From Azolla caroliniana (Eukaryota > Plantae > Polypodiophyta), in NCBI GenBank assembly GCA_043228905.1, contig JBHGNT010000013.1, forward strand, positions 7,626,001 to 7,690,000: DNA of 64,000 nucleotides, in the 5' to 3' direction. Under the pieces are notes generated by a model. The model had not been told where the DNA came from and made no database searches. It saw nothing but the letters and a program-made list of their open reading frames with translations. Below, in pieces: positions 4,701-64,000 of this stretch. Positions within the stretch are counted from its first letter, which is position 1. Each line of letters starts with the position of its first letter. Position numbers and translations under genes: made by a program.

Positions 4701-5323
4701 ATAAAAAAATGGAATACCTTTGTCATCTCCAAGAAGTGTCTAGGGTGAATCTGGTACTTACCCTGACTTATTCGTTGTCTACACACGTCCTTCTTATTTG
4801 GTGAGACACGCGTATTTTTGGCCCAAAATGAATCCACTTTCTCAATAATCTCTTGAGATAAGGCATCACATCGTCGTCTACGTCCCGACCCCAGCCACTT
4901 GAATTTGCTTGAGTGTATATTTCGACGATGTTTCCTCAAGTTCCTTCTTTGAATACCCAGGGCTAAGGCAACTTTAGTATCACTATATTTTTTTTCTCTC
5001 GCACCGTTCACAACCATGTGTAGGGTTGCCCTCTTTGCAGCCAGTTTGTCTAAGCTCTCTACACCTTTCACTAAGTCTAGGGATGACTTCATAGACTCCA
5101 CAATCTCTTCTGAAACACATTGGTCCCTAAATTTTATTCTCTCCATGTCTTCATTCAAACTTTGATGGTGTAACACTCTACAGATAATATCCCTACGATC
5201 CTCTTCACTAAATCTCTTCGTTATTTCTACCAAATAATGGACTATGTGAAGAACCACTCGTCTCTTAGTCCTTTCAGATATGCATGAGTTACTTGACAAC
5301 TCACTCTCGTTAGGAACCCCCAT
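1771..5323 (-). pseudogene. Sola2-like DDD transposase, 3 coding exons (5323-4718, 4625-3676, 2656-1771), one premature TGA at 2218-2220
   Basis: Motifs DFAENY..QNEVQSMH, ISDDKKHD, SDGAASQFK, WNYFGSGHGKGEHDGAG and Cys clusters. GT-AG introns 4626-4717 and 2657-3675 both splice in frame. The frame continues past the TGA (EPE*QDDIEEDVHSK). Confidence 0.7.
2680..3660. repeat. AGTAC-rich degenerate tandem repeats filling the 1019-bp transposase intron
   Basis: Recurrent ACTGATTTAGTA and GAGAACAC units; near-exact duplication starting at 3198 and 3344 (period 146). Confidence 0.75.
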
Positions 5324-5556
5324 TCGGTCACTAGATTTATCCACAAAAATTAAGTGGCTTGCGAAAGTAGTTAATGTTATATAGACTCAACCAAGAAAAC
5401 ACAATCAAATGTTTTTAAATGTGGCCTGCAAAGTGAGAAATATTTTGTTTCAAACACTAGAATTACATATCAAATATGACAAATGTCAATTCTAAAAATT
5501 TAGTACTGAAATATGAAGAAATGAAACATTTTAGTACTGAAAATAAAAAAATGGAT

Positions 5557-32690: not shown

Positions 32691-32935
32691 TACTACGATC
32701 CGATCTCGTCAAGAAGAAAAAGATAGATAGATTGATTGATACATAGAAAGATATATTTCATGATCTTCTGCAGCACACCGAGATTGAATACGATCTATGA
32801 GATGGGGCTGAGCCCACGCTGAAACATCACTTGACCTGAGGACTCTCTCATTACTACCAGCAGAGGACCACAAAATGCTGACTCCTAGTAAAGGGACCCC
32901 TCACCAGAAATTTTTTGATCAGTATACAGATCCTT

Positions 32936-35374
32936 ATGGCGATGACTAAAGATTGCATCATTATAACTCCTGAACACATTCGTGCTGGAAATACATTGAT
33001 CAGCTTGCATATGAGGCGTGGTCATCTTGCTAAAGCACAAGAAGTATGTGACCAACTTGAAGCTCGTGATGTGGTATCTTGGAATGCCCTAATTGCAGGG
33101 TATAATCAAAACGGCCATGGTGAAGAAGCAGTAAGGTGTTTCGTGCAGATGCAACATGAAGGTTTGTTTCCAAACGCTGTTACATTTGCCTCTACTTTGA
33201 AAGCTTGTGGTAGCATACTTGCAGCTGACAAGGCTAAAAAAATACATGCGGAAATATCGAAGGATGGTCTTATAGGAAACAATGTTATCGTTGGCACGGC
33301 ATTAGTTGATACTTATGCTAAATGTGGGATGCTGGCGGAATCGCAACAAGTGTTTGACCAGCTCAAAATCAGGAATTCTGTTTCCTGGAACGTTCTTATT
33401 GCAGGGTATGCTCAATATGGATGTGGTGAGGAAGCAATACAGTGTTATGAGAAAATGCAGCTGGAAGGTCTATGTCCAAATGCAGTTACATTTCTATCCC
33501 TACTAAAAGCCTGCGGCAGCATACGAGCAATCGAGAAGGGTGAAGTTGTACATGCTGACATGCATTACCGAGGGTTGGTTGGAAACAATGTGATGCTTGA
33601 TACAGCACTAGTGGATATGTATGCAAAATGTGGGGCATTTGCTAAAGCAGAAGAAATGTTTCATCTGCTTCACTTTCGGAACTTATTTTGCTGGAGTGTA
33701 CTCATGGCAGGATATATTGAGCAAGGGCAGGGTGAAAACGCATTGAACTGCTTTGAACAGATGCAATGTGAGGGCATCTTTGCAGATGCAGTGACTTTCG
33801 TTTGCACCCTGAAGGCTTGTGGCATGCTAGATATTCTTCATAAAGGCAAAGCAATACATGCTGTGATTCTAATACAAGGTTTGATAGAAGACGTTTTAAT
33901 TGGCACTGGATTGCTAGACATGTATGCCAAGTGTGGTGCACTTGCAAAAGCACAATATGTTTTTGACCAGCTCCACAAGCAAAATAGGGTGTGCTGGACG
34001 GCTTTGATTGCAGCGTATACAAAACATGGACAAGGTGAAAAAGCTCTAAAGTGTTTTGAACAGATGCAAGAAAATGACTTTTCACCAGATGCAGCCACGT
34101 TTGTTTGTATCCTAAATGCTTGTGGCAGCATAAGAGCTATTGAAAAAGGTGAACAAATACATGCTGAGATCGTGAAAGGAGGATTATTAGAAAAGTGTAC
34201 TTCAGTTGGTGCGGCATTAGTGGACATGTATGCCAAATGTGGGGCTCCTGTAAAAGCAAGGGAAGTACTGGATAAGCTTCAGGTTCGGGATGTTGTCTCT
34301 TGGACTGCACTCATTGCAGGGTATGCCCGACATGGGTATGATAAGGAAGCACTAAACAGCTTTCACCAAATGCAACATGAAGGACACTCTCCCAATGTGT
34401 TAACCTATGTTTGCATCTTGAAAGCATGTGGTAACGTAGGAGCAATAAATGAGGGAAAGGAAATGCATGCTGAGATTCTTAAAGAGGGTTTTTTGCGTAC
34501 AAACATTTTGGTTGGCAATGCATTGGTGGATATGTATGCTAAGTTTGCAATACATGAGAAAGCACAAGAAGTGTTTGATCAGCTTCCAGTACGGGATGTA
34601 ATCAGCTGGAATGCACTAATTTTTGCATATGTTCATGAAGGTTCTGCTGAAGAAGCGCTAAATCGTTTCTGGGAGATGCAAGATGCAGGCATCGTGCCAG
34701 ACATAGCCACGTTCCTTTGCATCTTGAAGGCCTGTGGCAACATAGGATGTATTTATACTGGTGAAAAGATACATGTTAATATTGCCAGAGATAGGTTATT
34801 GGAAAAAGATGCATTAATTGGTACGGGCTTGGTGGATATGTATGTCAAATGTGGGTCATTGACAAAAGCGCATGAAGTATTTAATGAGCTTATGGTACGA
34901 GATGTGATCTCATGGAGTGCTTTGATAACAGGATATGCACAGTTTGGGAAAGACGAAGTGGTTGTAGATTTACTTAACAAAATGATACAGGAAGGTTTAA
35001 AACCCGATTTCCTCACATTTACTGTTGTGCTTAATGCTTTCAGTCATTCAGGACTACTGGAGAAGGGAGAACTAATTTATGAGGCTTTAATTGGAGGCTA
35101 TGGAACAATCCCTACGTTAAGGCACCACACTTGTATGGTTGATATGTTTAGTCGTGCTGGGCATTTTGATAAGGCGGTCACAGTGCTCCAGAACATGCCA
35201 ACCTCTGATTATCTTCCAGCATGGATTGCTTTGTTGAGTGGTTGCAACAAATGGAGGAATGTGAAGCTTGGTCGAGTGGCATTTGAACATGTGGTACGAC
35301 AAAATAAAAGGTATCCAGGGACATATGTCTGTATGGGAAACATGTATGCAGCTGCTGCCATGCATGAGAATTGA
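32936..35374 (+). CDS. PLS-class pentatricopeptide repeat protein (S-[PLS]x6-P2L2S2-E1-partial E2), probable organellar RNA-editing specificity factor
   Basis: 812-codon open frame with regular triplets (VVSWNALIAGY, AVTF..LKACG, VGTALVDMYAKCG) and an E domain; no DYW. An upstream exon is possible (CAG acceptor at 32929). Confidence 0.93.
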   Translation: MAMTKDCIIITPEHIRAGNTLISLHMRRGHLAKAQEVCDQLEARDVVSWNALIAGYNQNGHGEEAVRCFVQMQHEGLFPNAVTFASTLKACGSILAADKAKKIHAEISKDGLIGNNVIVGTALVDTYAKCGMLAESQQVFDQLKIRNSVSWNVLIAGYAQYGCGEEAIQCYEKMQLEGLCPNAVTFLSLLKACGSIRAIEKGEVVHADMHYRGLVGNNVMLDTALVDMYAKCGAFAKAEEMFHLLHFRNLFCWSVLMAGYIEQGQGENALNCFEQMQCEGIFADAVTFVCTLKACGMLDILHKGKAIHAVILIQGLIEDVLIGTGLLDMYAKCGALAKAQYVFDQLHKQNRVCWTALIAAYTKHGQGEKALKCFEQMQENDFSPDAATFVCILNACGSIRAIEKGEQIHAEIVKGGLLEKCTSVGAALVDMYAKCGAPVKAREVLDKLQVRDVVSWTALIAGYARHGYDKEALNSFHQMQHEGHSPNVLTYVCILKACGNVGAINEGKEMHAEILKEGFLRTNILVGNALVDMYAKFAIHEKAQEVFDQLPVRDVISWNALIFAYVHEGSAEEALNRFWEMQDAGIVPDIATFLCILKACGNIGCIYTGEKIHVNIARDRLLEKDALIGTGLVDMYVKCGSLTKAHEVFNELMVRDVISWSALITGYAQFGKDEVVVDLLNKMIQEGLKPDFLTFTVVLNAFSHSGLLEKGELIYEALIGGYGTIPTLRHHTCMVDMFSRAGHFDKAVTVLQNMPTSDYLPAWIALLSGCNKWRNVKLGRVAFEHVVRQNKRYPGTYVCMGNMYAAAAMHEN

Positions 35375-37788: not shown

Positions 37789-38733
37789 CTTGTACTCTAA
37801 TGTTTTTCAAATGTTACACAAAATGGTCTAAATCTAAGCCCTTTCGTAAAAAAGTTGTAAACGTCACTTTTTAGCCTCTTCTTGATCTCTTAGTTTAAGT
37901 CCCCTTTAACTTAAGCTAGAGCTCTATCTTTGCCTTAATTCCATATACTTATTGTGAGTTGACGCATTAGGTTTAAGTGCTAATATGCCAAACTCTAATC
38001 ACTCCTCTTTTTGTATGCATTGTATGACTTCCCCACTTAATCGAGGAGTGTTTCGTTTTACTATGTGTAATCTTGTGTTTTCATGTGTGTACATAAAATT
38101 TAAACTTTTCTAATGCTTTAATCAACTTCTTAATTAGAGATGCCTTAGGCAACTCTCAAGGCAATGTGTTGATTCTTTGTAAACAAATTCCCTCTAGTGC
38201 ACGATTTTGGTAATATTACCCCAAATTCCTCTTTGAAGGACCTATCTCAACTTGTGGAATCTCACCATATTGTGCCACCACCATAATTAACTAGTGTTCA
38301 ACTGAGCAAGAGAGGTTGTCCATTACTTTTGAGTCACTTGCCTCCTGAACCCTAACCTTGTGAACCCTCATTCTGACCTTACTAAGGCATCCCTAATTAA
38401 GAAGTTAACTGATGCCTTAGAAAAGTTTAAATTTTACGTACACACATGAAAACACAAGATTACACATAGTAATACCAAACACTCGATTAAGTGGACTTCA
38501 TATAACGCATACAAAAAGAGTGATTAGAGTTTGGCGAAGTAGCACTTAAACCTAACGTGTCGACTCACAATAATTATATGGAATTAAGGGAGAGAAAGAG
38601 CTCTAGCTTAAGTTAAAGGGGATTTAAACTAAGAGATCAAGAAGAGGCTAAAAAGTGACATTTACAACTTTTTTACGAAAGGGCTTAGGTTTTGACCATT
38701 TTGTGTAACGTTTGAAAAACGTTACAGTACAAG
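37789..38733. mobile_element. non-coding foldback/MITE-like element with ~360-bp inverted arms
   Basis: 37789-38148 is the reverse complement of 38382-38733 with scattered mismatches; 233-bp spacer. Confidence 0.85.
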
Positions 38734-45032: not shown

Positions 45033-48000
45033 ACAATCAATCTGATTGTCAAAGTGCTCATGAAGTATTGTGATGGGAAAGTTAGTGAGTGTTCATTCCA
45101 TATCAATTATGGGCGGATTGAACTACCCATAATATGGTCAACAATTACATGCCTATCAAGGTTATGATAAGACAAAAATCGGTGATGCCCGTCGAAAGTA
45201 TAATTTCCAACCTGAAGAAAATGAGCTAAGATGTTTTAAGAAGTAAGAAATGGTGCTACCTATTCTCACTCTAGACTATCGAAAAGAAGACCGGGGATAC
45301 TCCAGGGCACATAGGAGAAGATGTACGAGTTCAATGGGGGTGTCTCATGTTACCATCACCGCATAATGTGCACCAACATCAGCAAATGGATGTTGATTGA
45401 AGAAGTTAGGTCGACTCAACACATGCACATTACACAAATTTGTAACATTGTAAATCATTAATGTATTCACCCTTGGGATAAGTGATCGGCAAATCGAAAT
45501 CACGTGCATGCATCATGATTGTAGTGAGTGTTAGAGCATTATCTCCTTGTGATAGAATATTTAAGCCAAACAAAGAAAAAGCTAAGGCTAAAGATATAAG
45601 TACAACAAAATCACAACAAAATCAAGCTAACTCAAACCATGAGGAAAAGACTATCCAATATTAACAAGATAAAAAAACAATAAAGTAACTCCTTTGGATG
45701 GACATTCATCTACTTGATATCAACGAAGGAGAGAATCCGTTTTATACATTCCATATGTCCACTACATGAGCTATACATGTGACTTCTCAAGGATATCACC
45801 TTACATCCTCACAAGTATAAGCATATATTGGCTGGGACTTTATAAGCATGTATAGTCATAGAAACTTCCACCACTTGCAAGCTCCCTAACTTATGAATTT
45901 TCCATATATTGGTTGGGAGCAGTGTTGGGCAAAGTCTCTAACCCCTACCGGAAATTTTCCCGCTACTTATGATCTGAACCGGAATTTAGAATTTTTAATT
46001 GGCCATTTTCCTACAAGCGATAATATCAACCGGAACACGTTGATTTTTTTTTTGCACATACCAAATCAAATCATTTTTTTGGGCACATACCAAATCAACA
46101 TTCATTCGATCTGTGCAAGGTCAAGCTTAGAATGGCAATATTTCATAGAGACCTACAATATTTGTTACCGAGATGGTGCTAACTAGTTTCCTTTTAATGT
46201 GAACACAACAATGCTTGACATTCAAAAAACATCATAAACTTTAAATAAAAAAATTGACCATTGTGGAACATTACTGCATATACAAACTTTACAACATTAA
46301 CATAATCAAGTACCAGAAAACAAGTATGAACATTTATAATCTCTCATTATTTGATCATCTATTATATACATTAGTTATATTGCAAGCATAGTCCTTGCTT
46401 TCATATACAAGAAACAATTAGCTGAATCAATCAAATAATCAAATCAAGCATGCTAATCTTTTTTGATGCATTGTTCGATTATCAGGACTAGCATTGCTTT
46501 TCGATTCAGACACTGTTTTGAAATAAAAGGAGTATACTATATGATTTCTATTAGATTGGTAAAGCTTCTCAGAAGAGCTATTGCACTCTCCAAGAATAGA
46601 CCTTCTAAGAAGAACTGAGTTAGGCTCCCCAAACAATAGGAAGACCCCTAGAACGGGAGAACTAGGAAATTCCATCGATTTTGCCATCCCCTGACCTTTG
46701 CTCCCATGGTGCCTTGACAACTCAAGTATCAACAACATTGAGCTCATCAATCAGCACATCTGGGATATTGAGGGGGCTTTGCTTGTTTTAGGGGAAAGAA
46801 AGGGGGGAAAAGGGAGAAAGAGGGGGAAAAGGGAGAAAGAGGGGGAAGAGGAAATTCAAGATAACTACATGTAAAACGTTTATTTTTCTACATTTTTTTA
46901 TATGAAAATACATAAATAGCTGACTCTAAATATATGAACCGGCTAGATTCCGGATTTTGGGAAATTCTAGCCGGAATCAATTCTGACTCTCTCCCACCTT
47001 GGCCGGCAAAAGTACCAATTCAACCAAAACGTTAACATTGTTCCTGGGACTTTTCCCAACACTGGTTGGGAGGCGAATGAGATGTTTACCTTTATATTGT
47101 TGGCCGAACATGATGGCCAAAGGTGTGAAAGGGGAAAGGAAGTCAAGCACAAAAAGCCGAACAAATGGAGCTAGCCAAGGGCCGAATAAGGCGTTAATAT
47201 AACGCCAAGTAGTCAATGAGTAAAAAACAATTGTAACTGACCATGCTCCCCAAAACTAGGAATCATGCAATCTTATATAAGGGCGGGGTGAATGAATGAG
47301 AGTGCAACTATAATTTAGATTATAAATTGTACAAGAGAGGAGAGCACTTTTAGAGAGAACAAAGAGCTATACCGATAGTTGATGAGCTTGTAACAAGTAC
47401 GGACAATAAGTACGACCAAACTTCAAATCCGGATAGATGCCATTAGGAGTAGGCATATTCAAACTCACCTTCTGATTTACATGCCCTGATGATGTTGGCT
47501 CTATTGTGTAAGAGTTTGACGGATTACTATCTCTATTATTCTTCCTTTTCTTCTTTTTCAAATTCCTCGGTTCAGAATCCATTAAATCATTATCTTTCCC
47601 ACTCGGTGTAGAAGGTTGTTCTTCCCGATGCTTCTCTACCATGGCATCAATCCGATCGAGCTCATTACTCATCTGTTTCTTTTTCTTCTTCTTCTTGTCT
47701 GTCTACTACTCCTTTCTTTTCGTAAAAGAATAGTGTGTGCGGAAGCGTATGCAAAATACAGAGTACACAGTTCGGAGGAATAAAATAGTTCGGTAGAACA
47801 AAAGAAACGCAGAGGAGATGGAGAGGGAGAGAAAGAGAAAGAGAGCAGACAATAGACAACTCTAATTCAAAATAGTGACTCTCTGTGTACATACACCATG
47901 CTCAGTGAGCGCCTTTTATACAAGCCTTGACAATCGGGCTAACACAAGTACTAACAGTACTTGACGCTCATAAATGAGCCGCTACACTCACTCCCAAAAT

Positions 48001-48937
48001 TATTCCTTTTGTGGAATATCTTTGTAACGGCCTCGCGGTTTACGCACCGCTACGCTTTTTTAAGATTGCTTAAAGTGTGTGGCACTTCATCGGGGGTTGT
48101 TTGGGGTGGACTCAAGTTTAGATCTTATTTGTATGTCTAAACATAAGTAGTGATATAGTTTTAGAAGAATAGAAAAGTGAGGGCGTGGGTGGGGGTTAGG
48201 GGAGTGTAGCTTGTTGAAGATATCAAAAGTATTTAAACCTAATCAAAGTTTTTAGAACATATTAAAGATCATTGGGATAACTTAAGTTATTAGACACCAA
48301 TAAAGTATTATTAAAACACCAATATAGAGTATTATTACAACGGGACCACACGCTTAGATGAAAGGGAGTTGTTTAAACACATGCTTAAGCAAACACTTAA
48401 AAGAAAGATTGTTATAAAAATAATAATAAATAAATAAAAATAAAAATAGAAAAGAGAGATTGAGATTAAAAAATGATTATGGTTAAGAAGGGATTATGAT
48501 TAAGGGGGAAGGGGTTGCTAAAACAAAGTACTTAAACGAATGTTTAAACAAATATTTAGTTAAGAAAACACTTGGGCAAACACTTAACGCAAGGTTATGA
48601 TTAAAAGAGAAGGGAGGGATTATGGTTAAAGAAAAGGGGTCATGGCTAAGAAGAGAATGATTATGATTAAGAGAGGAGAATACTTAAACAAATGTTTAAA
48701 CAAAAAGTTAAACCTAAAAATGATTGAACAAGTACTTAAAAAAAGGGGTTAAACAAGTACGTAATAGAAAATGATTAAATAAATACTTAAAAACTTAAGA
48801 CAAAAAAATTTGATAAAAAAGTGATTAAACAAGTACTTAATAAAAATTTATTAAATAAGTACTTAAGAACTTAAGACAAAAAATTAGATAAGAGCAACAC
48901 ATAGAAGGAAAGAAAGTTTTACTATCATAAGGCAACG

Positions 48938-48983
48938 ATCGGCAAATGCATTTCGCCTCGATGGAGGCTCTTTAGTGCCCGAT
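48938..48983 (-). ncRNA. minimal type I hammerhead ribozyme with a G5>A core substitution
   Basis: ATCGGGCA CTAAAGA GCCTC-CATC-GAGGC GAAA TGCA TT TGCCGAT: stem I, CUGANGA-like box, 5-bp stem II, GAAA, palindromic UGCA, UH site. Confidence 0.8.
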
Positions 48984-49145
48984 GTACAAATGATGAAAAC
49001 TAAGCCTACTAGGTTGCTCTTTTTATAGGGAGAGGGAGGAGAGTCCTTTGTATGTGGGACATACAAAAGTGTGTACAAAGGGAAAGTAAAAGAATGTACA
49101 CAAGACTTTAGGTGGGGGTTAAGAGGGGTGAGAGTACATAAAACA

Positions 49146-50078
49146 TTAGGTGGGGGGAAAGGATGCGTGTACTAGGTGGTTTCTTAGTTTTTTACCATTT
49201 AGCCAACACGTGAGAGGGGGTGTAAGGAAACTGTATTGTAGTTGTCCTAGAAGGGGTTTAAGTTTGTTTCTCACGAGCGCTCCGATTTGGAGTTTTTTGA
49301 TACATGGGGAGTAACGAAGCTTAAAAACAATGGGTGGAGGTTTTTTGTTGTTGGGTTGATTAGAGAGTAGTTGGTTTTGTATGGAGTAGGGGACGGTCGA
49401 AAAACACTTGACTAGGAACTTCGATGGGTAGCCCCTAGCTCTTAGGCAGTCGTACAACTTTTTGCGTAGTTCCATGTAGCCATTTTCTGAGCTCTCCCGG
49501 ATAGCATACCGTTTTAGTTCTCCCGTGATGAAGCCCTTTTTGTGTGCTATGGGGTGCGAGGATTTCCACGGGAGGTACATGTAGGCATTGAGAGGTTTTT
49601 GGTGGCCTACGGTGTCGAGGATGCCGAATTCTTTAAAGTATGGGCCTTTGAAGAAGACGATGTCTAGGATGATGATCTCTTTAGGGGAGGTTGTTGATTC
49701 AATACGGATGTGTTGTTGTAGAGGCACACCGTATTGGTGTAAGAAGGTGTGAAGTGTATCGGGGGAACCTTCCCAAACTCCTATGGCATCATCAATGTAG
49801 CGTTTGTAGTAGAGTAGTTGCGGTGTTTGAAAAGCTAGGTTGTCGTCCTCTAGCTGCGAAAGAAACAAGCAAGCGTAAACAACGGCAAAATTACTACCCA
49901 TTGCGGTGCCTTTAATTTGTAACCAAAAAGCATTATTAAAGGAGAGAAAATTGTTTCTAAGTATAAGTTCGGCGACACTCATAATGATTTTTGTTTTGTG
50001 TGGTGGGAAATGATGTGAAATACATTTTTTAAAAACCAATAGACCTTTCGTGGTAGGTATACTGGGATATAGTGACAC
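49146..50078 (-). pseudogene. Penelope-like reverse transcriptase (RT core to thumb), no C-terminal GIY-YIG
   Basis: SLYPSI, QIKGTAMGS, RYIDD, ILDI, QKPLN.YMYLPWKSSHP..KKGFITGELKRY, LRARGYP; ends KKLRNHLVHASFPPT*; 310 codons without a stop. Confidence 0.9.
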
Positions 50079-53000
50079 GGCCAGTCCGAAATCGAATTCT
50101 TCAGCCGATTCCTCATCACGGTCACCTCCGCTCCTTTCACACTCTTGTTCCTATTCTTCCCTTCTCCCCCTCAAGTTCGGCGTGTCGAGGTGATGCAATC
50201 CTAGCTCACCCGAGAAATGCCGCAACTTGTCGAGACCAAGAGGCTTGGTGAAGATGTCGGCAACCTGCCGATCTGTCAGAAGATACGCTAGTTCAACTTC
50301 ATCTGAAAGGACCCGCTCGTGGACAAAATGGTAATGCACCTCAATGTGCTTGGTCCGGGTGTGGAACACGGGGTTTTTCGCAAGGTGGATACTACTGAGG
50401 TTGTCACAAAAGATCGTCGTCGGATCAGACACCTCTACATGCAGATCCCATAATAGTCATATTAGCCAAATGACTTCGCATGTAGCGATAGTCGCCCCTC
50501 GATACTCGGCCTTCGTGCTCGACAGTGCTACTGTCGGCTACTTCTCACTGCTCCATGCAATCGCCGCACTGCCTAGATAGAATGCGTATCCGGATGTGGA
50601 TCTACGATCGTGGGCATTTTCGGACCAATCGGCATCCGTGTAGCCGACTAACTGTTCGGCTACGCCTGCCCAATAAAACAACGCCATGTCTTTCGTGCCG
50701 CTGACATAACGTAGTATCCTTGCGTGCACTGAAAGTGTTCAGCCGTAGGCTGCGACATGAATTGACTGATTAGGCCAACTGGATAACTAAGATCCAGCCG
50801 AGTAATCGTCAGATAGATAAGGCTTCTAACAATCTATCGGAACTGTGTCGGGTAGCACGCCTTCCTCGAATCTCAACGAAGCTTTGTGTTTCTATCCAAA
50901 GGGGTCGAGATGGGCTTACAGTCTGCCATCCTGAACTTGAAGAGCATATTCAGTGCGTAATGACGCTGGCTCATCAATATGCCTTCGGGGGTACGGATCA
51001 CTTCGATCCCGAGGAAGTAATGAAGGTCTCCGAGAGCCTTCATTTCAAATGATGCCACAAGGTGAGACTTCACATGGCGGGTTTCGTCAAGGTCGGCATC
51101 GGCGATGACTAAATCATCAACGTACAAGAGGAGGCTGACTGGTCCATATTGACCTTGCCGAACAAATAGAGAAGAGTCCGATTTCGACGGCGCAAACCCC
51201 ATCCTACGCAATTGTTGCGTAATCTTTGTGTTCCAAGCTCGTGGGGCTTGCTTTAGTCCATATAAGGACTTCTTCAACCGGTAAACTGCTGAGGTGTTTT
51301 GTTCGGATAGAAATCCGGGGGGTTGTACCATGTACACCTGCTCCTCAAGATCACCTTGCAAGAACACATTCTTTACATCCATCTGATGTAAGTGCCACCC
51401 CTTTGCCGCTGCTACGGCTAGTAGGACTCGCACGGTAGTCATCTTCGCGACAGGCGTGAAGGTCTCGTCATAGTCCACACCATGCTTCTGAGCGTAGCCT
51501 TTTGCTACTAAACAGGCGTTGTAGCGGTTGACAGAGCCATCGATGTTGTATTTCACCTTATACACCCATCTACATCTGATTGGCTTTACACCCTTTGGTA
51601 CGTCAACTAGGTCCCAGGTTTCATTCTCCGATAATGCGCGCATCTCTTCCTCCATTGCGGCACGCCAGTTCACATCTTCCGCCGCTTCTGCGTAGCTCTC
51701 CGGCTCACGCACTTCCGCCACTTGCGTCATGTACGCATAATGGTGCACCATGTACTCATTATATCTGTATCTCTTTACGGGGTTTTTCAGGCGGGTAGAT
51801 CGGCGTAATTCGTGATTACCCGATTTCATGACCTTTTCGGCTACTGTCGACCTCTTTCGTGGAGGTTCCTTTTTAGTTTGCCCGTAGTCAGACTCGCTCC
51901 GATCTGACTCGGCACTACTAAAGTCGTATTCCGGCATTTTCTTCTTGCCCTTCTCCTTGCATGTAAATTGTCTCCTCTGTTCTTTATGCGGGGACATCAC
52001 GGTTGAGTCTCCACTACTCGCCATCTTTTCAATAGGTTGGCCATTTCGGCCCAACCCCTCATTCGGCCCACTGAGCCGAAATGAGATCGGACTCTTTCTC
52101 AAAGCTCCAATTTCCTCATCATGCAGAGGCATCTCAGCCTCGCTGACTTCTTCCTCAGAATTCGAAATGGAGTCTTGAGGTACTTGGAGGTGAAGGCAAG
52201 TACCACGAAGTGGACTCATCGAACACGACGTCACAACTTATAACACTTATACCCTTTCTGCTCATCTGAATAGCCAAACAAGATAAATTTCTCAGCTTTA
52301 GCATCCAGTTTCCTCCTTTTCTCCTTCGGCACGTGCACATACGCGATGCTGCCGAAAATCCTCAAGTGTGCCAAGTTCGGCTTCTTCCCACAATTCAGCT
52401 CATGTGGCGACACTCCTCCATTAGCAGAAGTCCAATTTTGCAGGTAGAAAGCCGTCTTCACGGCTTCAGCCCAATAGAATTTCGGCATATGCTTCTCTTT
52501 AGGCATTTCCTTGGCCGCTTCTTCAATCATCTGATTATTCCGCTCGGCCACGCCGTTCTGCTGCAGCGTGTATCTACACGAGAATTCGTGTCGAATTCCC
52601 TCCTTCTGTAGATAACTTGTGAACTGCTCGGAGAAATACTCCTTCCTGCCATTGGACCATAGGCATTTGGTCTTATGCCTTGTTTCACTTTTTGCAAGGC
52701 TCTTCACCTTCAGGAAACATGCGAAGACTTCGCTCTTCTTCGCGATTGTGCATACCCACGTGTGCCGAGTGAAGTCGTCGATGAAGGTTACAAAGTAATG
52801 GCTTCCACCGAGACTCATGTTTTGTGCCAGACCCCATACATCCAAATGGATCAAATCCAACGGACTTCGACTGCAATTACGCTCATTGGGGAATGGAAGT
52901 CGAGGTTGTTTTCCCATATGACAGGCTTCACAAACTTGGCCATTACGGCCCCGAAATTTCGGCAAGCCGAAAACAATGTTCGTTGTCTACATCTCACGAA

Positions 53001-53199: not shown

Positions 53200-53496
53200 T
53201 GTTGGGATTACGGTCCCTCCGGATGGGATGGTCAGATGTCCGAGAACCGGATGATGAAGACCCCGGCTACGGAGCCGGATGATGAAGACCCCGGCTACGG
53301 AGCCGGATGATGAATGTACCCGGAGAGAGATCCGGATGCGGGGACATATTTGTGAATATGTTTGCCAAGGGCCCTTGAGGCTATATTTGTAAATAGCCCG
53401 AAAGTCATATGTGTATAAATATGACTTAGGGCAAACAGTTTTGTTGTTGTTCCTCATTTTTCTGTTTTCCACTTAGAGGGAGCGAAGTGAGAGCAG

Positions 53497-53527
<31 letters not shown>

Positions 53528-56500
53528 GAAGAGGTCGTTGCCTCTGTGTATTACCGCCGCCTGTGGCGAAGACAGTGAGCACAAGGTTGTTGCCTTGTAG
53601 CTTCACCATTGTACATCCCTGTTTATAGTGATGGTTGGAGTCTGAGGACTCCCGTGGTTTTTCCCATTTAGGGTTTTCCACGTAAAACATTCTGTGTACT
53701 CTTCTCTCTATTGTCTCGTGCATTTTGTATTTCCTATTTTCTGAGAGTTGATCCTATTCCTTGGTTGTGGCCGAGCACCGTGTTTAACAAAGTGGTATCA
53801 GAGCAAGGTTAACACAGAAAATGGAAGGCGGCGGTAGTGGGCCTCCGGGCATGATGGTGTTGAACTCACAGAACTACGCCGACTGGAAGATAAAGATGGA
53901 AGACCTTCTCATCGTCCGAGACCTATACGAACCGATCGACAATGCCGAGATACCCAAGGGGGTAATAGAGTCGGAGTGGAAGCTCCTGAACCGGAAAGCC
54001 GTAGCGACGATCCGGCAATACGTCGATGTAAGTGTTCTGCAACATGTGGCGAACGATACGAACGCCTATGAGATGTGGCAGAAGCTGTCCGGACTTTATG
54101 AGAGGAAGAATGCTCTGACCCGGACCTCCCTGATGAGGAAGATAGTGACTCTTAAGTACCGGGACGGCGAGAGCATGGTCGAACACATCAGCACGTTCAT
54201 GGGATTCGTGAACCAGCTTGCGGCGATCAAGTTCCCGTTGGATGACGCAATGCAAGCCATCATGCTGATGTGTACCCTTCCGGAGAGCTGGGAGAACTTG
54301 GTAGTTACTCTCAGCACCTCCTGTAAGGAAGAGAACTTGTCCTTACTAACGGTAAAGACAAGTATTCTAAATGAAGAAGCGCGTCGGAGAGATAAAGAAC
54401 CGGCCTCCGACTCGAAGGCGCTGCTTACCGAATCGGAACGGGGAAGACAACGGAACCGGAGTCCGCAAAGACGGGAGAAGTCGGGGACACAGTCGCAGTC
54501 GAGGGGAAGACCTACATGCTTCTACTGTGGGAAGCCGGGGCACTTCCAGAAGAACTGTCGGCATTTCCGGAAAGACAACGGAACCGACGGTACCGATTCG
54601 AAGAAGTCAATGGAGCGAAACGGTGCATACCGGGGAGCCACGGACCGGAGAGGTCCGGATCGGCGAGGGCAGGACCGGAAAGGAACGACGGCACTCGCGG
54701 CAAGTGAAGAAGAGATAATGCTCATTACCGAAGAGAGGGAGCTGAACCTTGCCGGTGAAGAGATGACCTGGGTGGTCGATTCCGGAGCGTCGTTCCACCT
54801 GACCCCGGAGAAGAAATACTTCTCATCCTACACAGCCGGTGAGCACGGCTGTGTCCGGATGGGAAATGAAGGTACATGCCGGATTGCCGGCATAGGAGAC
54901 GTGTGGCTGATGACATCAACCGGATGCAAGATGCTGCTGAAGGATGTCCGACACGTTCCGGAGGTTCGATTGAACCTGATTTCGGCCGGGAGGCTAGACG
55001 ATGAAGGCTACACGGGTAGCATCCGGAACGGTGTCATGAAGTTCAGCAAAGGGAGCCTGATAGTGGCTCGGGCCCGGAAGGTCAACACACTGTACCTGAT
55101 GAATTCCCGGCTATGTCCGGAGGAGCTGAACGTGGCAGCTGACACTGCCGGTGAGCTGTGGCACAAGAGACTGTGCCACATGAGCGAGAAGGGGATGAAG
55201 AGGCTTGCAGAAGACAACCTTATTCCAGTGAAGCATGTGCATCTGGAGAAGTGCACCGATTGCCTGGCCGGTAAGCAGAACCGAGCCTCCTTCCACTCAA
55301 GGCCACCGACGAGACGTAGCGCACCATTGGAGTTGGTGCACACTGACGTGTGTCAAGTAGAAACGAAGTCACATGGCGGAGCCCAGTACTTCGTGACATT
55401 CATTGATGACCACAGGCGGAAGCTGTGGACGGCACCGTTGAAGACAAAGGACCAAGTGTTGTGCGTCTTCAAAGAACTCCACGCGAGAGTGGAAAGAGAA
55501 TCCGGCAAGAAGCTGAAAGCGATACGAGCGGATAACGGAGGGGAATACCGGGGGCAGTTCGAGGAGTACTGTCGCTCGAAGGGAATCCGGCTCGAGTTTA
55601 CTGTGCCGAAGACGCCGGAACTGAACAGGCTGGCCAAGAGGATGAACCGGACCATAATGGAGAGGGTCCGGAGTATGCTAGCACATGCGAAATTACCCAA
55701 GGGATTTTGGGCTGAGGCAATGTCGACGACGATGTATGTGATAAATAGATCACCCTCAGTACCTTTGGACGGAGACACGCCGCAGAAAGTGTGGACCGGT
55801 AAGGAAGTGTCCTACCGGCATCTGAAGGTGTTCGGGTGTCTCGCATACGTGCATGTGGCAAAGGACCGGAGAGGAAAGTTAGATCCAAAGACCCGGCCAT
55901 GCATATTCCTCGGTTACGGCGACGACGAGTTCGGCTACCGAGTATGGGACCCGGTCGACAAGAAGATATTCAGGAGTCGAGATATCGTCTTCATGGAGGA
56001 CAAGACACTCGCCGACTGGGAGTCAGAGAAGAAGATGAAGAGCTCCAAGTCGACTGGTGAGGATCAACTCTAAGAGGAGCAGTCCCGACCGGCAAGGGAC
56101 CGGTTAGCACTCGAGGATCCGACCGAAGACGGTGAAGAAACAGAACCGGCCGAGGAAGATGAAACTGATACCGGAACCGGCCCCGATCCCGAAATGGATT
56201 CGGATGAAGAGGAAACGGAGGAGCCGGTTACCGAAGCTCCGGAACGGAGATATCCTCTAAGAGAGAGAAGGCCCCCCCGGACATTTCCGGAACCAGAGCA
56301 CGTGCTGCTAACCGACGAGGGGGAGCCGGAGAGTTTTGAAGAAGCAAAGCTTGACACCCATAGCCGCAGGTGGTTAAGTGCCATGCAGGAGGAGATGGAT
56401 TCCCTGCATGAGAACCACACATATGAACTTGTGGAGTTGCCGAAAGGAAAGCGGGCACTTCGAAACAAGTGGGTGTTCAAGCTGAAACCGGGAGATGCTG

Positions 56501-58173
56501 GAAACCCCCCGAGATACAAAGCCAGGATCGTGGTGAAGGGGTTCCAGCAGAAGAAGGGCGTCGACTTCGACGAGATATTTGCCCCGATAGTGAAGATGAC
56601 CTCCATCCGGACGGTGCTGAGCATAGCGGCAAGCATGGACCTCGAGGTAGAACAGATGGACGTGAAGACGGCATTCCTTCACGGTGACCTCGAAGAAGAG
56701 ATCTACATGCAGCAACCGGAAGGATTCGAGAAGAAAGGGAAGGAGCACCTGGTATGCCGGTTGAAGAAGAGCCTTTACAGACTGAAGCAGGCTCCCCGGC
56801 AATGGTACCAGAAGTTCGACTCTTTCATGACCGACGAAGGGTACCACAAAACGCAGTCCGATCACTGCGTGTTTGTGAAGAAGTTCGAAGGAGTAGACTT
56901 TCTAATACTCCTCCTGTACGTGGACGACATGTTGATCGTCGGACGGGACCAGGTCAAAATACGGATGCTGAAGAAAGCGCTTCACCGAACCTTCTCAATG
57001 AAGGACCTGGGTCCGGCGAGGCAAATACTAGGGATGCACATCATCCGGGACCGGAAGAAGAAGCAGTTGTGGCTGTCACAGGAGAAGTACGTGACAAAGG
57101 TGCTTCACCGGTTCAACATGTCGGAAGCAAGACCGGTCGGGTCAACCCTCCCGGCAAACTGCAAGTTGTCCAGCAAGCAAAGCCCCAAGACAAAGGCTGA
57201 GAAGGAGGACATGATGAAAGTACCATATGCCTCTGCCGTCGGAAGCTTGATGTACGCAATGGTGTGTACAAGACCGGACATAGGATATGCAGTCGGAGTG
57301 GTGAGCCGGTACATGAGCAATCCCGGCAAAGAGCACTGGAACGCGGTCAAATGGATACTCCGATACTTAAAGGGCACTTCGAACATGTGCCTCCGATTCG
57401 GCTCCGGTAAGCCCGAACTCGATGGATTTACCGATTCGGACATGTCAGCTGATGCGGATACTAGCCGGTCTACATCTGGGTATGTAATGACGAATGCAGG
57501 GGGAGCTGTTTCGTGGCAGTCGAGGCTGCAGAAGACGGTTGCGTTGTCAACCACGGAGGCGGAGTACATGGCGGCTGTTGAAGCCGGCAAGGAAATAATA
57601 TGGATAAAGGACTTCATTAGAGAGCGCGGTATCCAGCAGGAGGAGTACCGACTCTACTGCGACAGTCAGAGTGCCATCCACCTTGCGAAGAACGTGGCCT
57701 ATCACTCCCGGACGAAGCACATCCAGCGAAGATATCACTGGATCCGGGAAAGGATAGAAGACCAGGAGTTCGTGCTGACGAAGATCCACACGGACGAGAA
57801 CGGGTCAGATATGTTGACCAAAGTGCTCACACCCGACAAGCTGGAAGCGTGCCGGAAGAGGGTCGGACCGGAAAGACATCCCATGCCGAAGTGAAGGGGG
57901 AGTTTGTTGGGATTACGGTCCCTCCGGATGGGATGGTCAGATGTCCGAGAACCGGATGATGAAGACCCTGGCTACGGAGCCGGATGATGAATGTACCCGG
58001 AGAGAGATCCGGATGCGGGGACATATTTGTGAATATGTTTGCCAAGGGCCCTTGAGGCTATATTTGTAAATAGCCCGAAAGTCATATGTGTATAAATATG
58101 ACTTAGGGCAAACAATTTTGTTGTTGTTGCTCATTTTTCTGTTTTCCACTTAGAGGGAGCGAAGTGAGAGCAG

Positions 58174-58212
<39 letters not shown>

Positions 58213-58474
58213 GAAGAGGTCGTTGCCTCTGTGTATTACCGCCGCCTGTGGCGAAGACAGTGAGCACAAGGTTGTTGCCTTGTAGCTTCACCATTGTACA
58301 TCCCTGTTTATAGTGATGGTTGGAGTCTGAGGACTCCCGTGGTTTTTCCCATTTAGGGTTTTCCACGTAAAACATTCTGTGTACTCTTCTCTCTATTGTC
58401 TCGTGCATTTTGTATTTCCTGTTTTCTGAGAGTTGATCCTATTCCTTGGTTGTGGCCGAGCACCGTGTTTAACA
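53200..58474 (+). mobile_element. full-length Ty1/Copia family A, copy 2
   Basis: LTRs 53200-53789 and 57905-58474 (differ by one 28-bp unit, 4 GA units and ~4 substitutions); TSD ATACC/ATACC; PBS 53793-53804; PPT 57893-57904. Confidence 0.98.
53821..57894 (+). pseudogene. Copia gag-pol with TAC>TAA nonsense at 56071-56073
   Basis: Collinear with copy 1, which has Y at this codon. Confidence 0.95.
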
Positions 58475-60249
58475 ATACCTTGGTCGACGATCTGTCCGAT
58501 CGACACAAGGTTCTTGGTTATTGTCAGGACGTGCAATACATTCATGAGTTTCCCTTTCTGCCCGACGTGGCTGAGGGGAACTTCTCTGACATGTTCGATG
58601 GTATGCAGAGTGTCGTCTCCCGTTTCGACCACTACTTGCGATTCCGGTTTCTCCAAGTACGAGAACCATTCCTCGTGACTCGTTATATGATTTGACGCTC
58701 CAGAATCAACATACCACACCTTGCTTGATTTCGAGGTGTTCACGATCATAGAATTGGCCTTATGCTTCATTATGAAGGTTGGGCCCGATTTGTTTTCGGC
58801 TTGTTCAGAGCCTTCTGCGTAGTGCGATTTCTGACGCCTCTTTGTGTCTCTTCTACTTGATCCGTCTTTGTCCGAATCGGCTCTCTTTTTCCAGCACTCG
58901 CTCTCCTTGTGGCCCGTTTTGCCACAGTACCAGCATTCTAACGCGGCCTTCTCTTGCCGGCTTCTGGCGCCGCCAAGACTCCCCCTGCTTGTGGAGGGTC
59001 CGGAATTGTTGTCGACACATCGATTATGCCACTTGTTCTGCTCTTGTCGGCCGCTTCCATTGCGCGCCGATCTGCCTTGTCCACCATGACCACGGGGCCT
59101 GTATTCCTCCATGTACAACATCTTGTTGTCGGCGTGCATACTCGTCGAAGCACCCATGTGATTTTCCTTCACGAGCAACATTCACTGAAGCTCGAAGAAC
59201 GAAGGCATATCCTCCCTCGTACAGACCACCAATCGGAAGGCTCCGAACCTGGACGCTAGCCCACCAAGGCAAAGCTGCATTATTTCATCTTCCTCAACGT
59301 TCATGTTGACGGAAGCGAGAGAATCACAGATTTCCTTGATTCGGGACATGTAATCAGCCACAGACAGATCTTTCTGCCAGACATTGCTTAGCTCCTGCTT
59401 GAGTTACAGCTTCCTGGCTGTTGTGCTTGCGGTGAAAATCTTTTTGAGATTCGCCCACGCTGCCTTTGGCGTCTTAGCATCCCGAATATAGCTCAATAGC
59501 TGGTCGCTCACATAGGATGCAAAGTAGTAGAGAACTCAGCTTGCCGTAAAATCTCTGTGTCGAATCGAGTGCTACATCATTAGCTCCTTCGACATAACTC
59601 CAGTAGCCATGGCCAAGCAGGTACTAGTGCATCTTGTACGACCAAGATGCGTAGTGGCTCCTGTCGAGCTTCTCAGTCGGTAGCGAGCTTCCCATACCTC
59701 TGTCCATATTGTTGTCTTTTTCTTTTCCGAACAAAAAACAAAGAACAACTTCAACTCTGTTTTGTCGCAAGTTTTTCTTGTCGGCTGCAGAGGACTTCAA
59801 CCCTCACGCTCTAATACCATCTAAAAGAATAGCGTGTATGGAAGCATATGCGAAATACAAAGTACACAGTTCGGAGGAATAAGATAGTTCGGTAGAACAC
59901 AGAAAACGCGGAGATGGAGAGGGAGAGGGAGAGACAGAGAGAGAGAGAGAGCAGACAACAGAAAACTCTAATTCAAAATAGTGACTCTCTGTGTACATAC
60001 ACCGTGCACAGTGAGCACCTTTTATACAAGCCATGACAATCGGGCTGACACAAGTACTGACAGTACTTGACACTCATAAGTGAGCCGCAATACTCACTCC
60101 CAAAATTATTCCTTTCGAGGAATATCTTTCTAACGGCCTATTGTGTGCACGATTTTACGCACCCACTTTACGCACTGGGTTACGCACCCAATTATGTACC
60201 GAATGTTGAGCTTGTCTCTCAACACTTTCCCTAAACCATGGTCTTTCTC

Positions 60250-61376: not shown

Positions 61377-64000
61377 TGTGAAAGTTAGCGTGCGGAAGCT
61401 TGACAAAACTAGTTTAGCCGGGCAGCAACAAAGAATAGGAAACATAGGTTCAATGGAAGCTTGAGAATATTTAGCATACACGGGAGAGATAGAGAGAGAG
61501 CATAACATAAAACTCTATTCTAAAATAATAATCCTCTGTGTACATAGAATGTGCTCAAAGAGCACTTTTATACAAGTCCATAAAGGACTGACAAAAGTAC
61601 TGACAAGTACTTCAATGCTCATACTAGTGACTGTCACTGATTCCCAAAAATATGCCTACGTACTGGGCTAGATCCGTAGGCCTCTACCGGCCTATTGGTT
61701 TCAATCTGATCCGGCTCCTGGTTCCAGATATCATCCGGACAACGATCCGGTTCTTCATTTTGGATACTGGTCTGACTTTGGCTTATTCAGCTGATCCGGA
61801 TCCGGTTGAGCTTGCTCGCTCAACACTCCCCCTCAAGCGCAACTTGAGGTCAGATCATGGTATCAGTGTTTGCAGTAGTCGGTCCTTTCCTCTGGCTCCT
61901 TTTGACGTCCTCCCGCCTTTCTCGCGCTCCTCGTCCAGTCCGGTTTTGCTTCCCACGACTCGTCCAGTTCTACGCACCTCGTCCTCCTTGATCTTCTTGT
62001 CTATTCAATAGGCCCATTTCAGCTCCTTCGCTGCTATGACTCCGACTCTTGTCGACCCATCGGTTCATCCGTGTTGGTGTCAATTTCCGCTGCCTTCTTG
62101 TCTGCTTGGCCCTTAGTTGTTCCGGCTCTTCCGAATCCAACTATTGAACTGAATCAGCTTCCTCCGATTTGTTCCAACTCTTGTCCGAGTTGGTAGTCTC
62201 CAACTCGTCTTCCATTTTAGGCCCTTCACCACCTCGGACCACGTCCGGGTCTTGGCCTTCTTCCGGTCGGCTCTGTCCTTCTTGACTCTGTCGCAGCTGC
62301 CGCTTGCTTTGACTTGTTCGGATGTGCCAACTCCTTCAGTCGGCTCGGCTTGCCCTATCTGCTCATCTCCCCCCTTGGTTCTTTCTTCCTCATCGGCTCC
62401 TTGGCCAATGCCATCCGTTCTCGTTCTTGTTCTCCCCCTCAAGTGTGGCACATCGAGATACTCAATGCCGAGCATCTCCGAAAAATGTTGCAACTTGTCC
62501 GATCCGAGCAGCTTGGTGAAGATGTCGGCAACCTGCCAATCCGTGTGAACATACCGAGGTTCAACTTCACGGTTCAAGACCCGCTCACGAACAAAGTGAT
62601 AATGCACTTGTATGCGCTTTGTCCGAGCATGGAATACAGGGTTCTTGGCGAGTTGTATGCTGCTTACGTTGTCACAATAAATCAGGATCGGGGTCAGCAC
62701 CTCGATCCAGAGGTCTCCTAGTAGTCGCCGAAGCCAGATGGCTTCATAGGTGCCAATGGTAGTGCTGCAGTACTCAACCTCAGTGCTCGATAGAGCCACT
62801 GTTCGCTGCCTTTTGCCGCTCCATGCAACAACCGCGATACCAAGAGAAAACATGTAACCGGAGGTGGATTGGCGATCCAATGCATCACCAGCCCAGTCGG
62901 CATCGGTATATGCGACCAACTTTCCAGCTATATCGTGTCCGTATAACAGTCCCCAGTCCTTCGTGTCGCTCACATATCGCAATAGTTGATGCGCGCACTG
63001 AAGGTGCTCCACAGTCGGCTTTTGCATAAACTGGCTGATCACCCCGACTGGATAACTAATGTAGGGTCGGGTGATCATCAAGTATATAAGGCTTCCGACA
63101 ATTTGTCGGAACCGTTTCTCATTGTAGGCCGGGCCAGAGTCAGGACATAGCTTCCCATGTGTCATTGGCATCAAATGCCTGCATTTCTTCCTCGATAGTA
63201 GCACGCCAATTTGTTGCCAATTTGCGCCTTTTGTTGCTTCTATGTAGCTCTCTAGCTCACGCACTTTCACCACCTTAGTCATGCATGCATAGTGATGTGC
63301 CATGTACTCATTGTAATCGTACCTCTAGACGGCTTTCTTTTGACGGGTTGAACGGTGTAACTTTTCATTACCCGGTTTGAGGCCCTTCTTGGCTGGTTCG
63401 GACACTCATTGTAATCGTACCTCTGGACGGCTTTCTTTTCACGAGTTGACTGGCGTAACTTTTCGTTACCCGGTTTGAGGCCCTTCTTGGCCGGTTCGGA
63501 CTTCCTTTTTGAAGATCCGCCTTCTTCCTTTCGGGGGTCAAATTCGTTCCGATCCAACCCTTCACTGTTGATATCGTATTTCAACATCTTCTTCTTCCAC
63601 TTCTCTTTGCGCGTGAATCGTCTCCTTGGTTGCTTGCGCGGGGAGAGCACATCAGAGTCTCCACTACTCGATGGTTCATCATCCGACTAGTCATCCCGAC
63701 TTAGCCGCTCGTTTGGCCCACTTTGCCGGAATGAGATCAGACTCTCATCTAGAGTACCGAAGTCTTCATCTTCTACCTGGAGCTCTTTGGGCTCACTAGC
63801 CTCATCTTCAAGAATCGGGTCGGAGTCAGAAGTTGGAATCGATAGAGAGTACCATGATGCCGATTCATCAAACTCGACATTTCGGCTTACTCGGACCTGT
63901 TTAGTCTGGGGGTTATAACACTTATACCCCTTCTGCTCATGCGAGTAACCGACTAGGATGCACTTCTTCAACATCGGATCCAGCTTCTCCGTTTCTCATC
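61377..64000 (-). mobile_element. Copia family B 3' part (3' LTR 61377-61825, RH, RT with internal deletion, INT end)
   Basis: PPT 61826-61836; YTDADWAG..RQSTSGY; RT core missing near 63150; 98-bp tandem duplication at 63307-63502. Confidence 0.9.

What the first reader, a model, noticed from the sequence alone, without database searches (positions are those of the whole stretch)
48050..50078. Penelope-like retroelement without a C-terminal endonuclease, carrying a hammerhead ribozyme
Seen: a 310-codon PLE-type RT that stops right after the thumb/linker motif (KKLRNHLV), with no GIY-YIG. A minimal type I hammerhead follows 163 nt later (48938-48983), then ~0.9 kb of AT-rich repeats. Known: PLEs without a C-terminal endonuclease are either EN-deficient, telomere-associated types (Athena, Coprina) or Chlamys types with an N-terminal GIY-YIG, and PLEs often carry minimal hammerheads with a palindromic 4-nt loop. 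Inference: this is a poorly described land-plant PLE-ribozyme family. The 5' truncation means EN-deficient and N-terminal-EN architectures cannot be told apart here.
Basis: partly seen in the sequence, partly recalled or inferred. Interest (0 to 1): 0.85.

Follow-up and report, generated by a model that had tools for sequence, protein, structure and literature searches.

The report
Endonuclease-free Penelope element off the telomere
This is a shortened, decayed copy of a telomerase-like jumping gene that has no DNA-cutting enzyme and carries a predicted self-cutting RNA; its kind is known from the chromosome tips of a spikemoss, but this copy sits inside another transposon with no telomere repeats at either end, likely because it was copied into a DNA break.

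Summary
In detail: a 310-codon RT remnant, no C-terminal GIY-YIG, a type I hammerhead, an AT-rich tail. Full-length relatives (about 5.2 kb, RT 95% identical) have no endonuclease at either end and no Chlamys IFD or CxC. They encode a helical ORF1, and the RT lies in its -1 frame behind a conserved A-AAA-AAC heptamer plus hairpin (39 of 44 loci). The RT groups with Selaginella and gymnosperm proteins and matches the published Selaginella EN-minus (Coprina-type) motifs, so the kind is known. Not found in the papers I could read: a TATA box at a fixed distance upstream of the hammerhead (26 of 30), and internal insertion without telomeric repeats. This copy splits a copia element, with about 0.5 kb of target lost, no duplication and a 4-nt microhomology, as expected of copying into a break. 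One sister family does attach to telomeres. Three key papers were unavailable, and no genome was held to map copies. The scan had already noted this element type on other DNA of this genome. Verdict: new variant of a known kind, moderate interest.

The parts
48052..50078 (-). 5'-truncated copy of the EN-deficient Penelope-like element (3' 2.0 kb of a unit of about 5.2-5.3 kb)
   Evidence: 96% nucleotide match to L001:3205-5171 and match to the 3' end in L002:12-343
49146..50078 (-). RT remnant, motif A to thumb/C-terminal extension, 310 codons plus stop; catalytic Asp of motif A lost by truncation; 12 amino-acid changes against L001
49020..49027 (-). TATA-like box (TATAAAAA), 52 nt upstream of the hammerhead core; predicted promoter for the next unit in tandem
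   Evidence: sequence; fixed position in 26 of 30 distinct relatives, 0 of 136 control windows
48938..48983 (-). Type I hammerhead: core 48975-48969 with G5A at 48973, stem II 48968-48955, GAAA, palindromic TGCA loop, predicted cut after 48945
48090..48937 (-). AT-rich 3' tail, with a 76-nt tandem repeat at 48739-48891
   Evidence: shared with L001 and L002
48052..48089 (-). 3' terminus: small hairpin (48089-48071), A6 run, then GCGT shared with the target; no CCCTAAA
   Evidence: hairpin z only -1.6
50079..50456 (-). Host copia: end of RNase H and start of its 3' internal region, joined to the truncated 5' end of the PLE
47721..48055 (-). Host copia 3' LTR remnant, lacking about its first 51 nt; followed by AAAAG
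59820..60224 (-). Host copia 5' LTR (405 nt), preceded by GAAAG and followed by a primer-binding-site-like TGGTATTAGAGC
   Evidence: 30 mismatches in 326 columns against the 3' LTR

Best explanation
It is a 5'-truncated, decaying copy of an endonuclease-free, two-ORF Penelope-like retroelement of the Selaginella (likely Coprina-type) lineage, sitting inside an older copia element, where its telomerase-like RT likely used a free DNA end at a chromosome break as primer. Shown: the anatomy of the full unit (5' leader, helical ORF1, RT in the -1 frame, TATA box, hammerhead, AT-rich tail, terminal hairpin), head-to-tail joins between units, and the junctions of this copy. Inferred working cycle: (1) the TATA box at the 3' end of one unit would drive transcription of the next, starting at or just before the hammerhead; (2) ribosomes would make much ORF1 protein and, by -1 slippage at A-AAA-AAC, a little ORF1-RT fusion; (3) the hammerhead, likely as a dimer through its palindromic loop, would trim the RNA and might allow a circle, but the copied template must include the 0.9 kb beyond the cut site; (4) RT would start at the fixed 3' motif on any exposed 3'-OH, a telomere in families whose 3' end carries CCCTAAA, an internal break with a few bases of pairing in this family; (5) early fall-off gives 5' truncation and repair deletes target DNA; (6) the copy was then likely methylated and decayed.
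For: Full-length RT P0010 is 577 aa and 95% identical; relatives end at the same motif. No GIY-YIG pattern in 155 RT proteins, median tail 222 aa after the RYIDD motif, one longer low-complexity tail; none in 39 ORF1 frames; none by Pfam. The AlphaFold model (pLDDT 89.6) best matches TERT 3du5, E 1.5e-9, over 592 columns. RT overlaps ORF1 in the -1 frame in 33 of 45 loci; in-register AAAAAAC in the first 100 nt of the RT frame in 39 of 44 loci against 0.054 expected; downstream hairpin z at or below -3.9 at 12 of 13 sites. Window groups in a 40-row clade with Selaginella, Picea, Cryptomeria and Gb_ proteins, SH-aLRT 99. Both flanks belong to one copia (LTR pair, 5-bp GAAAG/AAAAG duplication of the copia itself); the PLE has no duplication of its own, about 51 nt of LTR and about 440 nt of internal sequence are missing, GCGT is shared at the 3' join. 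No plant telomere array in the 64 kb. 13 of 14 5' junctions of relatives are not telomere-capped; 3' ends of L004, L005, L040 run into non-telomeric DNA. 21 of 33 substitutions against L001 are C>T/G>A, 8 of 104 CG and 3 of 33 CHG sites against 10 of 601 CHH.
Against: One sister family is plainly telomeric: L034 ends in a (CCCTAAA)n run and L035 begins with one, and L003/L004, the closest sister subfamily, keep one CCCTAAA at or just beyond the 3' end, so telomere priming may still be the main route. Only one insertion site of the window's own subfamily was read; no genome was held. Target deletion size rests on a copia paralog of about 78% identity. Junctions in metagenome contigs of repeats can be assembly paths, and the 14 junctions were picked by hand. 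EN-plus Penelope copies can also insert without a duplication, by microhomology. The tree is a quick search and holds no named Athena, fungal Coprina, Neptune, Chlamys or Dryad sequence. The local Pfam copy also missed the RT itself, so its silence on GIY-YIG is weak alone. L007 lacks the hairpin; 4 of 30 lack the TATA box. Cleavage, frameshifting and the start site are untested; in a Poseidon element hammerhead cleavage was not needed for insertion in vitro.
Confidence: 0.68

Rival explanations
1. An ordinary telomere-targeted Coprina-type family; this copy is a rare stray that healed a break, and most copies sit in subtelomeric chains.
For: Telomeric joins in L034 and L035; head-to-tail units in L002 and in contigs of runs X1 and X6; published behaviour of Selaginella and fungal EN-minus PLEs.
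Against: The window family's 3' end has no telomeric motif; 13 of 14 5' junctions of relatives are non-telomeric, several next to copia or LINE remains; no CCCTAAA loose end at the 3' terminus among the rows shown (32 rows not shown).
Confidence: 0.2
2. The element is mobilised with an endonuclease borrowed from another element (an EN-plus PLE or a LINE), so insertion is ordinary target-primed reverse transcription.
For: LINE remains occur in the window and beside relatives L028/L030; EN-plus copies can lack duplications.
Against: No duplication and about 0.5 kb lost here; no sign of such cross-mobilisation in rotifers, and fungi hold EN-minus PLEs only.
Confidence: 0.05
3. The piece was copied at DNA level from another copy as filler during break repair, without reverse transcription.
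For: Deletion plus microhomology also fits synthesis-dependent repair (general knowledge); the family is multi-copy.
Against: The piece ends exactly at the family's 3' end and is cut only at 5', the signature of reverse transcription.
Confidence: 0.05
4. A Chlamys/Naiad-type element with an N-terminal GIY-YIG, or the EN-minus PLE-X1 group, whose 5' part was lost.
For: PLE-X1 and Chlamys-2_cBra occur in plants and carry hammerheads.
Against: No IFD (55 residues from SLY to GxAMG, 56 in the Selaginella relative), no CxC, DKN motif, no GIY-YIG upstream.
Confidence: 0.02

Closest known systems
Selaginella moellendorffii EN-minus PLEs (Coprina Sm1/Sm2; 'Selagine1' in Craig et al. 2021 Fig. S1)
   Same: No endonuclease, no IFD, same motif B string GTAMGSNFAVVYAC; 37 of 76 residues identical over motifs A-B by my own count by eye; canonical type I hammerhead in the terminal repeat; a Selaginella protein is the earliest branch of the same clade.
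   Different: This family has no telomeric repeat at its 3' end and the window copy is internal. Coprina is described as usually one ORF; here two ORFs with a conserved -1 frameshift signal. The 2007 description could not be read, so Sm1/Sm2 may share these.
Coprina-1_Alen of Ascochyta lentis (PMC13159263)
   Same: Two ORFs, coiled ORF1, DKN motif, RT plus thumb, no endonuclease.
   Different: All 13 copies in one isolate are at chromosome ends; the word frameshift does not occur in that paper.
Athena/Terminon elements of bdelloid rotifers
   Same: EN-minus, coiled-coil ORF1 that can be separated by a frameshift, hammerhead near the 3' end (Fig. 1 legend).
   Different: Rotifer-specific clade; RT motifs differ; telomeric repeats sit right beside the hammerhead, whereas here 0.9 kb of tail follows it; frameshift element is a pseudoknot there, a hairpin here.
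PLE-X1 of Selaginella and Chara (Chlamys group)
   Same: Plant EN-minus PLEs with hammerheads that insert away from telomeres by an unknown route.
   Different: They have CxC and belong to the IFD-bearing Naiad/Chlamys clade; Selaginella copies target 28S rDNA.

Membership tests
Penelope-like elements | Telomerase-related RT with N-terminal GxKF/Y and DK motifs | tested here: met
   GL[DK]FIP and DKNLG in the full-length proteins; best fold match TERT
Penelope-like elements | 5' truncation, tandem units or pseudo-LTRs, hammerhead in the terminal repeat | tested here: met
Coprina (EN-minus) | No GIY-YIG at either end | tested here: met
Coprina (EN-minus) | RT groups in the Coprina clade | tested here: inconclusive
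   Groups with a Selaginella protein and matches Selagine1 motifs, which the literature files as Coprina; no named fungal Coprina, Athena or Neptune row in my tree
Coprina (EN-minus) | Reverse-complement telomeric repeats at the 3' end and attachment to telomeres | tested here: not met
   Not met for the window copy and L001/L002; met for sister family L012/L014/L034/L035; genome-wide position not testable
Coprina (EN-minus) | Single ORF (usual description) | tested here: not met
   Two ORFs in 33 of 45 loci; a two-ORF Coprina is already published
Chlamys/Naiad (N-terminal EN) and PLE-X1 | IFD between motifs A and B; CxC motif; N-terminal GIY-YIG (absent in PLE-X1) | tested here: not met
Penelope/Poseidon (Dryad), Neptune, Nematis, Hydra | C-terminal GIY-YIG | tested here: not met
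Type I hammerhead ribozyme | CUGANGA/GAAA/UH core with stems I and II | tested here: met
   Met for the family; the window copy itself has G5A
Type I hammerhead ribozyme | Self-cleavage | not testable with these tools
   No RNA run listed as holder; needs an in vitro assay

The most novel reading that the evidence does not exclude
A land-plant lineage of telomerase-like, endonuclease-free retroelements has let go of telomeres: this family lost its telomere-pairing 3' end and spreads through chromosome interiors by priming on DNA breaks, using a Gag/Gag-Pol-like -1 frameshift and a TATA-plus-hammerhead module that starts each transcript at its own ribozyme. Sister families that still dock on telomeres would give a natural before-and-after pair for how such an RT chooses its primer.
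Probability: 0.4. Interest if true: 0.75.

Novelty: new variant of a known kind. Interest (0 to 1): 0.5.

Why it matters
EN-minus PLEs are the closest mobile relatives of telomerase and are described as rare in plants and tied to chromosome ends. How EN-minus PLEs reach internal sites is stated as open. Intact, compact members of this clade (L001, L002) with a defined frameshift signal, promoter candidate, ribozyme and 3' motif, and sister families with and without a telomeric 3' end, make priming specificity testable in vitro. They also show that annotation misses these elements: named relatives are labelled uncharacterized host proteins. The window copy itself is a dead fragment.

Tried and rejected
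No whole genome was held, so copies could not be mapped. Rfam found no hammerhead; single-sequence folding was not above shuffles. Pfam gave nothing for the window RT; a PDB sequence search with the profile gave 0 hits. Viral contigs gave no relative. No RNA holder listed. (CCCTAA)n runs in several relatives first looked telomeric but most lie inside ORF1, where they encode Asn-Pro repeats; not counted as telomere evidence. One X1 loose end with TTTAGGG-like letters after L002:260 is a single short contig in the orientation opposite to the telomere model; not used. Contig depths (3' end about 350-900, tandem join about 10-70 in X6 and X10) suggest most 3' ends do not continue into a next unit, but the tool warns that depth is no copy number; not used as a count. 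ORF1 has no Pfam family, no Atlas hit at 0.9, 51 unnamed relatives with none of 13 checked showing an RT or nuclease family, and no fold match; its model is four long helices. The idea that ORF1 equals the N-terminal helical region of EN-plus PLEs stays untested. Exact look-up of the window's PPR protein to learn the host lineage found nothing. The bacterial promoter scan is irrelevant here. The careful tree did not finish. No complex was predicted.

Full report
OBSERVATION. The minus strand carries an open frame from 50078 to the stop at 49146, 310 codons, beginning inside RT motif A and ending HLVHASFPPT. A hammerhead-shaped motif follows at 48983-48938, then an AT-rich tail to 48052. Pfam and Rfam see neither and the motif folds no better than shuffles, so the case rests on relatives. 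In this copy the core reads CUAAAGA; contigs of 4 of 4 runs read G at that place and so do all 21 relatives aligned. The copy's ribozyme is therefore likely dead (G5 is a conserved core base; established knowledge).

FULL-LENGTH ELEMENT. A search for longer proteins gave P0010, 577 aa, 95% identical, with a cluster of near-identical proteins on contigs of about 4.6-6.1 kb. A scan of metagenome contigs gave 49 loci. L001 (5171 nt) matches the window copy at 96% and shows what was lost: a 655-aa ORF1 and the RT N-terminus. L002 and contigs of runs X1 and X6 show the 3' end joined head to tail to the next 5' leader. No GIY-YIG was found: none by pattern in 155 RT proteins, whose tail after RYIDD has a median of 222 aa, none in 39 ORF1 frames, none by Pfam in 13, 15 and 12 proteins (weak alone, as this Pfam copy misses the RT too). 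The Chlamys/Naiad marks of Craig et al. (IFD, CxC) are absent. The model of P0010 (pLDDT 89.6) best matches beetle TERT along nearly its whole length. So the family is EN-deficient.

RELATIONSHIP. In a quick ML tree of 87 rows the window falls in a 40-row clade (SH-aLRT 99) with Selaginella, Picea, Cryptomeria and Gb_-labelled proteins; Closterium proteins lie just outside. The tree has no named Athena, fungal Coprina, Neptune, Chlamys or Dryad rows. In Craig's Fig. S1 only 'Selagine1' shows the motif B string of this family; I count 37 of 76 identities by eye over motifs A-B. Sm1 and Sm2 are filed as Coprina and carry canonical type I hammerheads.

CONSERVED SIGNALS. (a) Frameshift: RT overlaps ORF1 in the -1 frame in 33 of 45 loci (the rest are cut or broken). 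An in-register AAAAAAC lies in the first 100 nt of the RT frame in 39 of 44 loci, 0.054 expected (5 of the 49 loci left out because their match did not reach the RT start or was not entered). A hairpin follows at 12 of 13 sites (z -3.9 or lower against mononucleotide shuffles; L007 fails); for L001 z is -5.25 against dinucleotide shuffles, and one stem pair is C-G in L001 and U-A in L003. (b) Hammerhead: strict pattern in 38 of 49 loci, RT strand only, 0 in 20 shuffles; all 39 loops are palindromes of four kinds. On 22 rows (21 of the 39 hits plus the window) 95% of cells pair and 10 of 12 pairs change on both sides; slid controls reach at most 38% (relatedness inflates the shuffle test). (c) TATA box: in 26 of 30 distinct upstream sequences, at -36 to -39 or, in this family and L007, -51 to -53 from the core; 0 of 136 control windows. 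A start about 30 nt downstream would lie at or just before hammerhead stem I (inference). (d) A 3'-terminal motif with a weak hairpin is shared with L002-L005. ORF1 has a conserved helical core, no known family or fold.

INSERTION SITE. The 5' end abuts the 3' region of a copia just after RNase H; the 3' end abuts that copia's 3' LTR. The 5' LTR (60224-59820) and the remnant (48055-47721) are flanked by GAAAG and AAAAG, so both sides are one element. About 51 nt of LTR are gone and a paralog has 439 nt more before its LTR: about 0.5 kb lost, no duplication, GCGT shared between the element end and the target. The LTRs differ at 30 of 326 columns, the PLE from L001 at 33 of 1938, mostly C>T at CG and CHG sites: the PLE came later and has decayed like methylated DNA. 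The window has no (TTTAGGG)2 or (CCCTAAA)2 array. Among relatives, 13 of 14 hand-picked 5' junctions are non-telomeric, and 3' ends of L004, L005 and L040 run into other DNA, but L034 ends on and L035 begins with a true (CCCTAAA)n run, and that family carries CCCTAAA at its own 3' end. The clade thus holds both telomeric and internal copies.

MECHANISM. Shown: anatomy, tandem joins, junctions. Inferred: promoter use, frameshifting, cleavage, priming on a break. Because the copy includes 0.9 kb beyond the cut site, the template was uncut, or circular as Cervera and de la Pena propose, with copying started at a fixed inner motif as shown for an EN-plus Poseidon.

LITERATURE SEEN. Craig 2021 (PMC8557442): parts 1-5 of 10, passages, supplement part 54 and term searches. 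Cervera 2014 (PMC4209133) and Frangieh 2024 (PMC11167929): parts 1-2 of 4 each. Passages only: PMC13159263, PMC12477314, PMC3846280, PMC10088271, PMC6515669, bioRxiv 10.64898/2026.07.22.740005. PMC4607520 and PMC12868710 (fern genomes): the word Penelope does not occur. Ten searches listed no paper on fern EN-minus PLEs, a TATA box beside the hammerhead, or this frameshift in plants. Gladyshev and Arkhipova 2007, Arkhipova 2017 and Lin 2016 were not held, and they or their supplements may already report the frameshift, internal copies or gymnosperm members; an earlier scan note mentions conifer EN-minus PLEs as known. EN-minus PLEs away from telomeres have a precedent in PLE-X1.

VERDICT. A real element of a known kind, with a dead copy in the window.

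Noticed in passing
L011-L037, inside ORF1 (e.g. L025:5101-5160, L016:799-834): Tandem CCCTAA runs of up to 10 units lie in ORF1 and encode Asn-Pro repeats; they look like the C-rich strand of TTAGGG telomeres although the true telomere runs seen are CCCTAAA.
   Followed up: partly
L033:996-1020: A 5' junction falls inside the upstream hammerhead, just before GAAA.
   Followed up: no
L031:463-896, L025:571-960, L026:1499-1746, L029:312-404: Other families also have copia remains next to their 5' ends; may be a preference or just the abundance of copia.
   Followed up: partly
window 53200-58475 (+) and 6060-11120: Two 95% identical copia elements in opposite orientation; the first is nested in the copia that hosts the PLE, the second keeps a 1195-codon frame and near-identical LTRs.
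   Followed up: no
window 32882-35374 (+): Intronless 830-codon PPR gene with a weak E motif, the only clear host gene seen.
   Followed up: partly
window 1771-5386 (-): Fragmented Cys-rich frames that look like a DNA transposase (recalled resemblance); no Pfam match.
   Followed up: no
window 37789-38733: 221-nt inverted repeat, 91% complementary, around a 503-nt spacer; possibly a MITE.
   Followed up: no
window 63306-63501: 98-nt tandem duplication inside a third copia, upstream of its RT.
   Followed up: no
P0065; P0090-P0096: A Picea glauca relative is annotated as a mitochondrial gene, and Closterium gene models fuse an ORF1-like region to the RT.
   Followed up: no
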